Source: a virus
Lineage: Duplodnaviria > Heunggongvirae > Uroviricota > Caudoviricetes
Reading direction: 5' to 3' (one strand)
IMG/VR virus record: IMGVR_UViG_2734482554_000005
Length of the DNA: 5,388 nucleotides
Shown here: in pieces, positions 724 to 5,388 of the stretch
Position numbering within the stretch: the stretch's first letter is position 1
Layout: each line of letters begins with the position of its first letter
Notes under the pieces: generated by a model
The model's input: only the letters and a program-made list of their open reading frames with translations
Told to the model about the DNA's origin: nothing
Database searches by the model: none
Program-made: the position numbers and the translations under genes

Positions 724-1184
724 GCAGAGTCACCGCGATTATCTCCGCTCTGGTTATCTGCATCATCGTCTGCCTGTCATGGGCTGTTAATCATTACCGT
801 GATAACGCCATTACCTACAAAGAGCAGCGCGACAAAAACGCAAGAGAACTGAAGCTGGCGAACGCAACCATTACTGACATGCAGCAGAGACAGCGTGATG
901 TTAATGCACTCGATGCTAAATACACGAAGGAGTTAGCTGATGCGAAAGCTGAAAATGAAACTCTGCGCGCTGATGTTGCCGCTGGTCGTCGTCGGTTGCA
1001 CATCAAAGCAGTCTGTCAGTCAGTGCGTGAAGCCACCACCGCCTCCGGCGTGGATAATGCAACCAGCCCCCGACTGGCAGACACCGCTGAACGGGATTAT
1101 TTCACCCTCAGAGAGCGGCTGATGACGATGCAGATGCAACTGGAAGGGGCACAGGAGTATATCCGCACTCAGTGCATTAAGTAG
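720..1184 (+). CDS. Rz: Rz i-spanin (inner-membrane spanin subunit, type II membrane protein)
   Basis: ATG 720-722 overlaps the endolysin stop (ATGA). N-terminal TM helix ([20 protein letters not shown]), then a charged, coiled-coil-like periplasmic domain ([51 protein letters not shown]), about the size of lambda Rz. The ORF track extends the frame to a GTG at 708, but the ATGA-coupled ATG at 720 is the more likely start. Confidence 0.85.
940..1122 (+). CDS. Rz1: Rz1 o-spanin (outer-membrane lipoprotein), nested in the +1 frame of Rz
   Basis: 60-aa ORF entirely inside Rz in a different frame. Strong SD AAGGAG (927-932) 7 nt before ATG 940. Lipoprotein signal peptide with lipobox LVVVG-C (Cys20), and a proline-rich mature peptide ([19 protein letters not shown]). 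From memory, near-identical to lambda Rz1. Confidence 0.85.
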
Positions 1185-1615: not shown

Positions 1616-1881
1616 NNNNNNNNNNNNNNNNNNNNNNNNNNNNNNNNNNNNNNNNNNNNNNNNNNNNNNNNNNNNNNNNNNNNNNNNNNNNNNNNNNNNN
1701 NNNNNNNNNNNNNNNNNNNNNNNNNNNNNNNNNNNNNNNNNNNNNNNNNNNNNNNNNNNNNNNNNNNNNNNNNNNNNNNNNNNNNNNNNNNNNNNNNNNN
1801 NNNNNNNNNNNNNNNNNNNNNNNNNNNNNNNNNNNNNNNNNNNNNNNNNNNNNNNNNNNNNNNNNNNNNNNNNNNNNNNNN
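1616..1881. other. Assembly gap (266 N); nothing can be read here
   Basis: Continuous run of n from 1616 to 1881. True length and content unknown. ORF-track frames crossing it (X runs) are not interpretable. Confidence 0.99.
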
Positions 1882-2227
1882 AGAAGATCTCCCTCTCGCC
1901 ACGATCATGTGGCAACTGACAACCAAAGAACTCTGCGGTCAGGGCCTGCTGTGCGTGACTGACCTGGCGGTACTTGAGCGGTGGTGCGTGGCCTATGAGT
2001 TCTGGCGACGTGCCGTGAAAAATATTGCCATACAGGGCAACACCATCACCGGTGCAATGGGCGGCAGGGTCAAAAATCCGGAGCTGACCGCCAAAAAAGA
2101 ACAGGAGTCCGAGATGAGCAGCACGGGGGCAATGCTCGGACTCGACCCCAGCAGCCGCCAGCGTCTGATTGGCCTGGCGGGGCAGAAGAAAGCCACTAAC
2201 CCGTTTCTGAAAATTATCGAATCATGA
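1882..2227 (+). CDS. Terminase small subunit (P27/HK97 gp1-like), 3' portion only; 5' end lost in the gap
   Basis: Visible 115 codons (…[30 protein letters not shown]…[16 protein letters not shown]…) resemble the C-terminal part of P27-family small terminases. Stop TGA 2225-2227 overlaps the terminase large subunit ATG (ATGA). The start lies in or before the N-run; the track's GTG at 1574 is unlikely because it sits in the HNH stop region and frame continuity across the gap is unknown. Confidence 0.7.
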
Positions 2228-3957
2228 GCCGGAAATCTTACCCCAACGTAAATGCTGCAAATCAGTATGCCCGGGATGTCGTGCGCGGAAAGATTGTTGC
2301 CTGCCAGTTTGTGATTCAGGCCTGCCAGCGCCATCTTGATGACCTGATGGCGGAAAAAAGTAAGTCGTTTCGTTACCGCTTCGACAAGGACCTGGCTGAA
2401 CGGGCCGCGAAATTTATTCAGCTGTTGCCGCACACCAAGGGGGAGTGGGCATTCAAACGGATGCCCATCACGCTGGAGCCGTGGCAGCTATTTGTGATCT
2501 GCTGTGCGTTTGGCTGGGTCAATAAAGGCACCCGGTTGCGCCGCTTCCGGGAGGTGTACACCGAAATCCCCCGTAAGAACGGCAAATCAGCAATCTCTGC
2601 CGGTGTTGCCCTGTATTGTTTTGCCTGTGATAACGAGTTTGGCGCGGAAGTGTATTCCGGTGCCACGACAGAGAAACAGGCGTGGGAAGTCTTTCGCCCG
2701 GCGCGACTGATGTGTAAACGCACACCCATGCTGACGGAAGCGTTCGGGATTGAGGTTAACGCCTCAAACATGAACCGTCCGGAGGATGGCGCGCGGTTTG
2801 AACCGCTGATCGGCAACCCAGGTGATGGTTCATCACCCCACTGTGCCGTGGTTGATGAATATCACGAGCATGCCACCGATGCGCTTTATACCACAATGCT
2901 TACCGGGATGGGGGCGCGACGTCAGCCACTGATGTGGGCCATCACCACCGCCGGGTACAACATTGAGGGGCCGTGCTACGACAAGCGGCGGGAAGTCATC
3001 GAGATGCTCAACGGCTCGGTGCCTAACGATGAACTGTTCGGGATCATCTATACCGTTGATGAAGGTGACGACTGGACCGGCCCGCAGGTGCTGGAAAAAG
3101 CCAATCCAAATATTGGCGTGTCGGTTTATCGCGAATTTTTGTTAAGTCAGCAGCAGCGTGCGAAAAATAACGCCCGTCTGGCAAACGTCTTTAAAACAAA
3201 ACACCTCAATATCTGGGTGTCGGCGCGTTCGGCGTATTTCAACTTGGTGAGCTGGCAGAGCTGCGAGGATAAATCACTGACCCTTGAGCAGTTCGAGGGG
3301 CAGCCGTGCATTCTGGCCTTTGACCTGGCGCGTAAGCTGGATATGAACAGCATGGCGCGACTTTATACCCGCGAGATTGACGGTAAAACGCATTACTACA
3401 GTGTGGCCCCGCGTTTCTGGGTACCGTATGACACGGTGTACAGCGTCGAGAAAAATGAAGATCGACGGACAGCCGAACGCTTTCAGAAATGGGTGGAAAT
3501 GGGCGTTCTGACCGTTACCGATGGTGCGGAGGTGGATTATCGCTACATCCTCGAGGAGGCCAAAGCGGCGAACAAAATCAGCCCGGTCAGTGAGTCACCC
3601 ATCGACCCCTTCGGGGCGACCGGGTTGTCACATGACCTTGCTGATGAAGACCTGAATCCCGTCACTATCGTCCAGAACTTCACCAATATGTCCGATCCGA
3701 TGAAAGAGCTGGAAGCAGCGATTGAATCGGGACGTTTTCATCATGACGGCAATCCCATCATGACCTGGTGTATCGGCAACGTGGTCGGCAAAAACATGCC
3801 GGGTAACGATGATGTGGTGAAACCCGTCAAAGAGCAGGCGGAAAACAAAATCGATGGTGCAGTTGCGCTGATTATGGCGGTTGGCAGAGCCATGCTGTAC
3901 GAGAAAGAAGACACGCTGTCTGACCACATTGAGTCCTACGGGATCCGCTCGCTTTAA
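2224..3957 (+). CDS. Terminase large subunit (ATPase + nuclease), HK97-like
   Basis: 577-aa ORF. Walker A-like P-loop (EIPRKNGKS), Walker B-like hhhhDE (AVVDEYHE), and a C-terminal RNase H-like nuclease region with conserved acidic residues ([11 protein letters not shown]…[12 protein letters not shown]). ATGA-coupled to the small subunit. Position and size fit a packaging ATPase. Confidence 0.93.
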
Positions 3958-3968
3958 CTGAGGTAATT

Positions 3969-4151
3969 ATGATCATGCTGATTCTCGCGCCTCTGGTGGG
4001 CGTGCTGGGTGCGCTTTTGCTGGCGTATGGTGCCTGGCTGATTTATCCCCCGGCGGGTTTTGTTGTTGCCGGGGCGCTGTGCCTGTTCTGGTCGTGGCTG
4101 GTGGCGCGATATCTCGACCGTACACGGCAGTCTGTCGGCGGAGGTAAATAG
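3969..4151 (+). CDS. Hypothetical small membrane protein (60 aa, two predicted TM helices), function unknown
   Basis: SD GAGGT (3960-3964) just upstream of ATG 3969, with a second in-frame ATG at 3975. Almost entirely hydrophobic ([49 protein letters not shown]) with a short basic tail ([11 protein letters not shown]). Stop TAG 4149-4151 overlaps the presumed portal GTG by 1 nt. No family recognised, so this could be a real small protein or a chance ORF. Confidence 0.5.
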
Positions 4152-5307
4152 TGTTCTTTTCGGGATTATTTCAACGAAAAAGCGATGTGCCGGTGACCAC
4201 GCCAGCAGAACTGCTGATGCTATCGGGCTGTCATACGACACCTATACCGGAAAGCGGATCAGTAGCCAGCGGGCCATGCGCCTGACGGCGGTCTATTCTT
4301 GCGTCAGGGTGCTGGCAGAGTCTGTTGGTATGCTGCCCTGCAGTCTCTACAAAATCAGCGGTACCCTGAAAACACGGGCGGTGGATGAACGACTGCATAA
4401 GTTGGTTTCGGCAAAACCTAATGGCTACATGACACCGCAGGAATTCTGGGAGCTGGTTATTGTCTGCCTGTGTCTACGGGGGAATTTTTACGCCTACAAG
4501 GTAAAGGCACTGGGAGAAGTGGTGGAGCTTCTTCCGATAGATCCGGGCTGTGTGGAACCGAAGCTGAACAGCCAGTGGCAGCCGGTTTATCAGGTGACGT
4601 TTCCGGATGGTTCCGTGGATGTGTTGACCCAGAATGAAATCTGGCATGTGCGCACCCTGACGCTGGATGGACTTGTCGGGCTGAATCCCATTGCGTATGC
4701 GCGTGAGGCCATTTCACTGGCAGCGGCAACCGAGGAGCACGGTGCCAGGTTGTTTAGTAATGGTGCGGTGACATCCGGTGTGTTGCGTACGGAACAAAAG
4801 CTCACGCCGGATGCTTACGAGCGTCTGAAGAAAGATTTTGAGGAGTGTCACACGGGGCTTGGCAATGCTCACCGCCCGATGATTCTGGAAATGGGGCTGG
4901 ACTGGAAGTCGATGGCGCTGAACGCCGAGGACAGTCAGTTCCTGGAAACCCGCAAGTTTCAGCTGGAAGAAATCTGTCGTCTGTTCCGGGTGCCGTTGCA
5001 CATGGTGCAGAACACCGATCGCGCCACCTTCAACAATATCGAAGAGCTGGGGCTGGGATTTATCAACTATTCACTGGTGCCGTATCTGACCCGCATCGAA
5101 CAGCGGATCAACACCGGACTGGTACGAAAAAGTAAGCAGGGCGTTTATTACGCCAAATTTAACGCCGGGGCGTTACTGCGCGGGGATATGAAGTCCCGTT
5201 TTGAAGCCTACGCCACCGGGATCAACTGGGGAATTTACTCTTCCAATGACTGCCGCGACCTGGAAGATATGAATCCGCGTCCCGGTGGTGTAATGCCGAT
5301 CAGTTAA
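4151..5307 (+). CDS. Portal protein (HK97-family), apparently frameshifted near the 5' end in this sequence
   Basis: The body of the protein (from ~4270 to stop TAA 5305-5307; …AMRLTAVYSCVRVLAESVGMLP…NPIAYAREAISLAAATEEHGARLF…) looks like an HK97-type portal. The likely true start is GTG 4151 with a strong SD GGAGGT (4140-4145, 5-nt spacer), encoding MFFSGLFQRKSDVPVTTPAELLMLSG…, which resembles HK97-type portal N-termini as I recall them. That frame hits TGA at 4283-4285, and the rest of the gene is in another frame. The track's 4060 start lies inside the upstream ORF and its first ~70 residues are not portal-like. Confidence 0.8.
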
Positions 5308-5339
5308 GGATCAGTTGACCGATCCAGTGGCTGTGTAAG

Positions 5340-5374
5340 AATCCGGAAACGCTCACTTGTTTCCGGATTTTTTT
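5340..5374 (+). terminator. Rho-independent terminator (11-bp stem, 8-nt loop, T-tract)
   Basis: AATCCGGAAAC (5340-5350), loop GCTCACTT, GTTTCCGGATT (5359-5369) is a perfect inverted repeat, followed by TTTTT (5370-5374). Orientation fits termination of + strand transcripts; the reverse strand lacks a matching U-tract. Confidence 0.75.
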
Positions 5375-5388
5375 ATGCACATTGGACA

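What the first reader, a model, noticed from the sequence alone, without database searches (positions are those of the whole stretch)
4151..4290. Portal gene split across two reading frames at a short G-run
A portal-like N-terminus (MFFSGLFQRKSDVPVTTPAELLMLSG…) starts at GTG 4151 behind a strong SD and is translationally coupled to the upstream ORF, but that frame stops at TGA 4283-4285. The rest of the portal (…AMRLTAVYSCVRV… to 5307) is in a different frame. One extra G in the GGG run at 4271-4273 would give a continuous …ESGSVASGAMRLTAVYSCVRV… protein. This is either a homopolymer sequencing error in a draft assembly (the window also has an N-gap) or a genuine inactivating mutation, which would make the prophage defective for head assembly. 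No slippery heptamer is visible, so programmed frameshifting looks unlikely.
Basis: partly seen in the sequence, partly recalled or inferred. Interest (0 to 1): 0.55.

Follow-up and report, generated by a model that had tools for sequence, protein, structure and literature searches.

The report
Dead portal gene in Shigella prophage
The phage portal gene in this Shigella sonnei prophage remnant really is broken, by a one-base deletion near its start and by an IS4 insertion near its end, which is ordinary prophage decay in a genome known for it.

Summary
Intact homologues (phiP27, SfIV, ST64B, phi467, E. coli prophages) keep exactly GGG at 4271-4273. They carry one extra G 58 nt upstream: ancestral CTGGCT is CTGCT in the window, with a single G at 4213 (codon 22).

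It is not a sequencing error. Bases 4151-4290 are identical in 10 independent chromosome assemblies and 6 IMG/VR contigs. The resulting 343-aa product is on at least 1000 contigs, all labelled Shigella sonnei.

IS4 is inserted after 5290 (codon 380 of 413), so the "stop at 5307" lies inside IS4. In complete genomes chromosomal genes follow IS4, not head genes.

A few S. sonnei assemblies (19 + 4 contigs) encode the unshifted N-terminus together with the IS4 tail. The frameshift is therefore a polymorphism and most simply a later hit in an already disrupted gene.

There is no slippery heptamer, and all homologues have a single ORF, so this is not programmed frameshifting. Verdict: an ordinary pseudogene in a decayed HK97-type prophage. 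Low interest.

The parts
3969..4151 (+). ymfR-like 60-aa membrane protein ORF. Its TAG stop (4149-4151) overlaps the portal GTG start by one base.
   Evidence: ORF; annotated 'membrane protein'/'YmfR' directly before the portal in phiP27 and E. coli A36; exact sequence named YmfR [Shigella]
4140..4144 (+). Shine-Dalgarno-like GGAGG, 6 nt before the portal start codon
   Evidence: invariant in 8 sequences
4151..4285 (+). 5' fragment of the portal pseudogene: GTG start, 21 native codons (4151-4213), then 23 out-of-frame codons and TGA 4283-4285
   Evidence: no Pfam hit for the 44-aa product; no gene with this exact product on record
4213..4213 (+). Frameshift site: a single G where intact alleles have GG (ancestral GAA CTG GCT GAT; window GAACTGCTGAT). 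A 1-nt deletion at codon 22.
   Evidence: gap column in alignment with 7 intact homologues; IMG/VR L019 has CAGCAGAACTGGCTGATGCTATCGGGCTG, identical flanks with GG; in all 30 listed E. coli matches the record span is one base longer than the query span; repair here gives 371/380 aa identity
4214..5290 (+). Portal body, codons 22-380 of 413, in the frame of 4276. It contains the whole Pfam Phage_portal domain.
   Evidence: PF04860, 359 bits, residues 47-373 of the repaired protein; HK97 portal 8cez, E 4.6e-51
4271..4273 (+). It is not altered.
   Evidence: columns G142-G144 invariant in all 8 sequences
4276..5307 (+). The ORF that gene callers annotate (343 aa). It runs from Met43 of the portal to Gly380, plus 5 IS4-encoded residues (VMPIS) and a TAA inside IS4.
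   Evidence: exact product on >=1000 contigs, named portal protein [Shigella sonnei]
5279..5290 (+). IS4 target sequence GTCCCGGTGGTG (left copy of the 12-bp target-site duplication)
   Evidence: in L025 the right end of IS4 is followed by GTCCCGGTGGTG and then the portal 3' end
5291..5388 (+). Left end of IS4 (terminal repeat TAATGCCGATCAGTTAAG...). The transposase ATG is at 5375, and the window ends inside the element.
   Evidence: 100% match to IS4 InsG region; 1426-bp element with inverted ends in L008/L012; PF13006 Nterm_IS4 + DDE_Tnp_1

Best explanation
The window comes from a decayed phiP27/SfIV/ST64B-like (HK97-type) prophage of Shigella sonnei. Its portal gene is a pseudogene with two independent lesions.

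(1) IS4 inserted after codon 380 of 413, making a 12-bp target duplication. This removed the last 33 residues and uncoupled the portal from the protease and capsid genes. In today's complete genomes the far side of IS4 is chromosomal DNA (bamE or raiA), so later IS4-linked rearrangement moved or removed the head-tail module.

(2) One G of a GG pair was lost at codon 22 (window 4213). Translation from the native GTG 4151 now yields a 44-residue peptide: 21 native residues plus 23 nonsense residues.

The frameshift is inherited by nearly all sequenced S. sonnei. A small minority still encode the unshifted N-terminus joined to the IS4 tail, so the deletion most simply came after the IS4 hit, as a neutral second mutation in a dead gene.

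Shown: both lesions, their positions, and their reproducibility across assemblies. Inferred: the order of events, and that no functional portal is made.
For: Position of the deletion: alignments with 7 intact portals. An intact natural allele has identical flanks and GG (L019). Every listed E. coli hit is one base longer over the region.

Real, not an error: 4151-4290 is identical in 10 chromosome-scale assemblies and in 6 IMG/VR contigs. The 343-aa product is listed in 1695 index blocks and on >=1000 contigs, all named S. sonnei.

IS4: portal homology stops at 5290. The element is 1426 bp with inverted ends and a 12-bp duplication GTCCCGGTGGTG. bamE-recN-nadK or raiA-pheA-tyrA-aroF follow IS4.

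Order of events: the conceptual 385-aa protein (G restored, IS4 tail) exists exactly as 'portal protein [Shigella sonnei]' on 19 contigs, and a 379-aa partial with the same N-terminus on 4 contigs.

Recent decay: dN/dS of the repaired gene against intact homologues is 0.04-0.10.

Family: PF04860 at 359 bits, HK97 portal structure at E 4.6e-51.

Context: IS4 expansion and frequent pseudogenes in S. sonnei are documented (PMC7373316).
Against: The DNA of the 19 contigs with the unshifted allele could not be fetched, so the order of events rests on an exact protein match. A precise +G reversion in a minority lineage is not excluded.

The look-ups for 'frameshift without IS4' and 'fully intact' products were negative. 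These negatives depend on a C-terminal tail borrowed from L025, so they are weak.

ATG 4276 overlaps the TGA 4283-4285 of the short ORF. Low-level reinitiation producing a 343-aa fragment that holds the whole Pfam domain cannot be excluded from sequence alone.

Whether the head-tail module survives elsewhere in S. sonnei chromosomes is unresolved (one search is ambiguous).
Confidence: 0.93

Rival explanations
1. Sequencing or assembly error: the source is a draft assembly with an N gap, and one base was dropped in a short G run, so the real gene is intact.
For: The window has a 266-N scaffold gap that stands for 232 real bases. A few S. sonnei assemblies do encode the unshifted N-terminus.
Against: The 140 nt across the site are identical in 10 independent chromosome-scale assemblies and 6 IMG/VR contigs. 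This includes assemblies that show indel noise in other genes (L006, L010). The frameshift-dependent 343-aa and 336-aa products are each on >=1000 contigs. A GG pair is not an error-prone homopolymer. The gene is also truncated by IS4 in all of them.
Confidence: 0.02
2. Programmed -1 ribosomal frameshifting, or transcriptional slippage, joins the two frames to make a full portal.
For: The two frames overlap by 135 nt (4151-4285), and an A5 run lies at 4177-4181.
Against: There is no X XXY YYZ heptamer anywhere in 4151-4285. All intact homologues encode the portal in one frame with one extra G. A shift at A5 would replace 12 conserved residues. A5 is too short for efficient slippage (own knowledge). 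The C-terminus is cut by IS4 in any case.
Confidence: 0.01
3. The 44-codon ORF is a separate small gene, and the portal naturally starts at Met 4276.
For: Gene callers annotate the portal from ATG 4276. The Pfam portal domain lies wholly downstream of it.
Against: The first 21 codons are the conserved N-terminus of full-length portals that start at the same GTG. Residues 22-42 of those portals are encoded in the other frame of the window. No SD-like motif precedes ATG 4276. No gene with the 44-aa product is on record.
Confidence: 0.01
4. The frameshift came first and inactivated the gene, and the IS4 insertion followed. The unshifted S. sonnei alleles are then revertants.
For: L025 carries the deletion together with an IS4 that still has its target duplication and downstream head genes, so both lesions are old. 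No assembly has either lesion alone except the 19 + 4 contigs that have IS4 without the frameshift.
Against: It needs a precise +G reversion in a gene already dead, which is less parsimonious than retention of the ancestral base. The 'frameshift without IS4' product was not found (a weak negative).
Confidence: 0.1

Closest known systems
Portal protein of Stx2e phage phiP27 (NP_543090.1, L38) and E. coli prophage portals such as WP_240745495.1
   Same: Same gene order: HNH, cos, terS, terL, 60-aa membrane protein, portal. Same GTG start overlapping the upstream stop. 370-371 of 380 residues are identical after repair; about 93% nt identity.
   Different: Those are intact 413-aa ORFs followed by prohead protease and capsid genes. 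The window copy lacks one G at codon 22 and is cut by IS4 at codon 380.
HK97 gp3 portal (PDB 8cez/8fql); Pfam PF04860 Phage_portal
   Same: Clear sequence homology over residues 27-380 (E 4.6e-51). Pfam score is 359 bits against a cut-off of 39.1.
   Different: The homology is distant: HMMER reports it by E-value, and percent identity was not calculated here. The window copy cannot be translated as one protein.
beeE, the portal remnant of cryptic prophage e14 in E. coli K-12
   Same: Same module (terminase fragment ymfN/aaaE, ymfR, portal remnant) in a cryptic prophage. It is another example of this phage type decaying at the portal.
   Different: beeE is a 157-aa N-terminal stump left by deletion and fused to tail genes. 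Here the gene is nearly full length but frameshifted and IS-interrupted.
IS-driven pseudogene formation in Shigella (Hawkey et al. 2020, PMC7373316)
   Same: IS4 is one of five IS expanded in all Shigella. 719 CDS (14%) are inactivated in at least one S. sonnei genome by IS, nonsense or frameshift mutations. This locus shows both mechanisms.
   Different: This particular gene was not looked up in that paper's tables.

Membership tests
HK97-family phage portal protein (Pfam PF04860) | Significant match to the Phage_portal profile above the gathering score | tested here: met
   359 bits vs cut-off 39.1, profile positions 2-321 of 321
HK97-family phage portal protein (Pfam PF04860) | Sequence homology to an experimentally solved HK97-type portal | tested here: met
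   8cez_A (424 aa) E 4.6e-51; also 9lbn, 6te8
HK97-family phage portal protein (Pfam PF04860) | Position directly after the large terminase and before the prohead protease and major capsid genes | tested here: inconclusive
   The upstream side is met (terL 2224-3957). Downstream in the window is IS4. Protease and capsid genes follow only in IMG/VR contig L025, and chromosomal genes follow in complete genomes.
HK97-family phage portal protein (Pfam PF04860) | One uninterrupted ORF of about 413 codons (a functional gene rather than a pseudogene) | tested here: not met
   1-nt deletion at codon 22 and IS4 insertion after codon 380
Programmed ribosomal frameshift site | Slippery heptamer X XXY YYZ in the overlap of the two frames | tested here: not met
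   none in 4151-4285
Programmed ribosomal frameshift site | Two-frame arrangement conserved in relatives | tested here: not met
   relatives have a single ORF with one more base
IS4 insertion | 1426-bp element with imperfect terminal inverted repeats, a DDE transposase with an IS4 N-terminal domain, and an 11-13-bp target duplication | tested here: met
   1426 bp in L008/L012; 18-bp ends with 2 mismatches; PF13006 + PF01609, 442 aa; 12-bp GTCCCGGTGGTG on both sides, left in the window, right in L025. The expected size and duplication length are from my own knowledge of IS4.
Sequencing or assembly artefact | Not reproducible across independent assemblies | tested here: not met
   identical in 10 chromosomes and 6 IMG/VR contigs; product on >=1000 contigs

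The most novel reading that the evidence does not exclude
The 343-aa fragment (Met43 to Gly380 plus VMPIS) holds the complete portal domain. It might be made at a low level by termination-reinitiation, because TGA 4283-4285 lies 5 nt after ATG 4276-4278. It might then be retained in S. sonnei as a dominant-negative decoy that poisons portal ring assembly of incoming SfIV/phiP27-type phages. Nothing here supports expression or selection. S. sonnei is too clonal for conservation to be informative.
Probability: 0.03. Interest if true: 0.5.

Novelty: already known. Interest (0 to 1): 0.08.

Why it matters
It matters little beyond annotation. The locus should be annotated as one portal pseudogene: frameshift at codon 22, IS4 after codon 380. 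It should not be annotated as a 343-aa 'portal protein'. The prophage cannot build heads from this locus. The G/GG polymorphism at 4213 could serve as a minor lineage marker within S. sonnei. It is also a clean small example of stepwise decay, first an IS hit and then a neutral indel, in a genome already known for IS-driven gene loss.

Tried and rejected
GGG is invariant in homologues, and this repair loses 18 identities compared with repair at 4213.
- The TTG 4060 start of the long ORF (415 aa) was rejected. It overlaps ymfR in another frame, and no such product is on record.
- Exact-pattern scans for either allele found nothing in genome contigs (species representatives) or in metagenome contigs. 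S. sonnei is presumably not a separate representative there.
- The look-up of the 44-aa product found nothing.
- A literature search for this specific locus gave nothing relevant.
- Exact look-ups of the L025 protease, capsid and tape-measure proteins, meant to test whether the head-tail module persists in S. sonnei, were ambiguous. The protease is on 43 contigs, one of 4.83 Mb, with one S. sonnei label. The capsid protein is widespread in Enterobacteriaceae. The tape measure is labelled E. coli only.
- No structure prediction was run. It would not change the verdict.

Full report
**What is in the window.**
The ORF list and the gene calls in matching genomes show a phage late region. In order it holds holin (11-226), lysozyme (226-723), Rz with embedded Rz1 (708-1184 and 940-1122) and an HNH endonuclease (1227-1577). 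An N run (1616-1881) follows, then the small terminase and the large terminase (2224-3957). Last come a 60-aa ymfR-like membrane protein (3969-4151) and a portal gene. The order and sequence match Stx2e phage phiP27, Shigella phages SfIV, SfII and SfI, Salmonella phage ST64B and many E. coli prophages.

Both halves of the window are 100% identical to chromosome-scale assemblies. The exact proteins of those assemblies are labelled Shigella sonnei.

**Check of the observation.**
GTG 4151 overlaps the TAG of the upstream ORF and sits 6 nt after GGAGG. The same GTG is the annotated portal start in phiP27 and in E. coli A36. The frame stops at TGA 4283-4285 after 44 codons, and the rest of the portal is open in the frame of 4276. 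These parts of the observation are correct.

**Where the frames really join.**
- Aligned with phiP27 and E. coli A36, the window has a single gap at the position of G4213. GGG 4271-4273 and its surroundings are identical.
- With five more homologues the result is the same. CAGCGGGCCATGCG is invariant in all eight sequences, and the only indel is at 4213.
- Phage phi467 reads GAACTGGCGGATGCT. An IMG/VR contig (L019) reads CAGCAGAACTGGCTGATGCTATCGGGCTG, which is the window's own sequence plus one G.
- In all 30 listed E. coli matches to 4120-4420, the record span is one base longer than the query span.
- Restoring the G gives ...PAELADAIGLSYDTYTGKRISSQRAMRL..., with 371/380 residues identical to the A36 portal.

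So only the first 21 residues of the 44-aa ORF are portal sequence. The lesion is the loss of one G of a GG pair at codon 22, 58 nt upstream of the proposed G run.

- Portal homology ends at 5290, after Gly380 of 413.
- From 5291 the sequence is the left end of IS4. The residues VMPIS and the stop at 5305-5307 are therefore IS4-encoded.
- In L008 and L012 the element is 1426 bp with inverted ends.
- In IMG/VR contig L025, the right end of IS4 is followed by GTCCCGGTGGTG. These are the same 12 bases that precede IS4 in the window (5279-5290). The portal 3' end, protease, capsid and tail genes then follow. This is the signature of a simple IS4 insertion with a target duplication.
- In the ten complete genomes the far side of IS4 is bamE-recN-nadK or raiA-pheA-tyrA-aroF, without the duplication. 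In several of them IS4 itself carries a nested IS3-family element. Later IS-linked rearrangement therefore separated this half of the prophage from its head and tail genes.

**Error or mutation?**
- The 140 nt from 4151 to 4290 are identical in all ten chromosome-scale assemblies read. Two of these show obvious indel noise in other genes (L006 and L010).
- The same 140 nt are identical in six IMG/VR contigs.
- The 343-aa product is what a gene caller reports only if the upstream frame is broken. It is listed in 1695 index blocks and on at least 1000 contigs, all named S. sonnei. A 336-aa contig-end version is on another 1000 or more.

The frameshift is a real, inherited allele.

**Order of events.**
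An exact look-up of three conceptual proteins gave one hit. The portal with the G restored but with the IS4 tail (385 aa) exists as 'portal protein [Shigella sonnei]' on 19 contigs. A 379-aa contig-end version with the same intact N-terminus is on 4 contigs. The versions 'frameshift without IS4' and 'fully intact' were not found. Those negatives depend on a C-terminus borrowed from L025, so they are weak.

The simplest reading is that IS4 hit first, and the G was lost later in the ancestor of most sequenced S. sonnei. This would be a neutral second mutation in a gene already disabled. A precise reversion in a minority lineage is the less parsimonious alternative. I could not fetch the DNA of those contigs.

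**Not programmed frameshifting, and not a separate small gene.**
- There is no X XXY YYZ heptamer in 4151-4285. The only runs are T4 and A5.
- All relatives encode one ORF.
- The 44-aa product has no family match and is not on record as a called gene.
- No canonical start codon lies in the portal-body frame between 4151 and ATG 4276, and no SD-like motif precedes 4276.

Reinitiation after TGA 4283-4285 could in principle give a fragment that contains the whole Pfam domain, residues 47-373 of the repaired protein. Nothing supports this, and I keep it only as the low-probability novel reading.

**Family and age.**
The repaired protein scores 359 bits against PF04860 and matches the solved HK97 portal (8cez) at E 4.6e-51. 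Against intact homologues, dN/dS is 0.04 (phiP27, A36) to 0.10 (SfIV, ST64B). The gene therefore evolved under purifying selection until recently, as expected for a young pseudogene.

**Comparison with what is known.**
- E. coli K-12's cryptic prophage e14 carries the same ymfR-portal module, with a portal stump, beeE.
- IS4 is one of five IS expanded in Shigella. [quoted passage not shown]

This locus is a textbook instance of that process.

**Verdict.**
The feature is real and ordinary. It is a doubly disrupted portal pseudogene in a decayed HK97-type prophage of S. sonnei. The placement at the GGG run and the sequencing-error alternative are wrong, and the IS4 truncation was overlooked. Interest is low.

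Noticed in passing
window 1616-1881: The run of 266 N stands for 232 real bases in complete S. sonnei genomes. Those bases hold a GC-rich inverted repeat (GGGGCGGGGC...GCCCGCCCC) at the place of the phiP27 cos site, and the start of the small terminase gene. The gap length in the window is therefore only an estimate.
   Followed up: partly
window 5291-5388; L003-L012 7016-9777: The IS4 that truncates the portal is 1426 bp in L008 and L012. In L003, L004 and others it spans 2762 bp because an IS3-family element sits inside it. Its right flank is bamE in some strains and raiA-pheA in others, so IS4-linked rearrangements differ between strains.
   Followed up: partly
L025 2433-2838 and 4197-4582: This IMG/VR contig has a 386-nt duplicate (3 mismatches) of the portal 3' end and protease start on both sides of IS4. 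It also has an N followed by an IS4 hairpin with its loop flipped. This is most likely a short-read assembly artefact or two related prophage copies collapsed together. The right IS4 junction with the 12-bp duplication looks genuine.
   Followed up: partly
window 940-1122 inside 708-1184: A 60-aa ORF with a lipoprotein-type signal ([20 protein letters not shown]) lies embedded in another frame of the Rz gene. This is the usual Rz1 arrangement, and it is called PF06085 Rz1 in L011.
   Followed up: no
L006 and L010 (whole loci): These two assemblies split several genes that are intact elsewhere (terL, terS, recN, nadK). This suggests long-read indel errors and is a reminder that single-assembly frameshifts in this species need cross-checking.
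   Followed up: no
window 4214-4219 versus homologues: Next to the deletion the window has GCT where most relatives have GCG, and GAT where phiP27 and A36 have GAG. Both variants also occur in intact alleles (L019, SfIV, phi467). They are ordinary polymorphisms and not part of the lesion.
   Followed up: yes
L026 (E. coli K-12 e14, 3550-4205): K-12's cryptic prophage e14 has the same ymfR gene followed by the portal stump beeE. This is an independent decay of the same phage module.
   Followed up: partly
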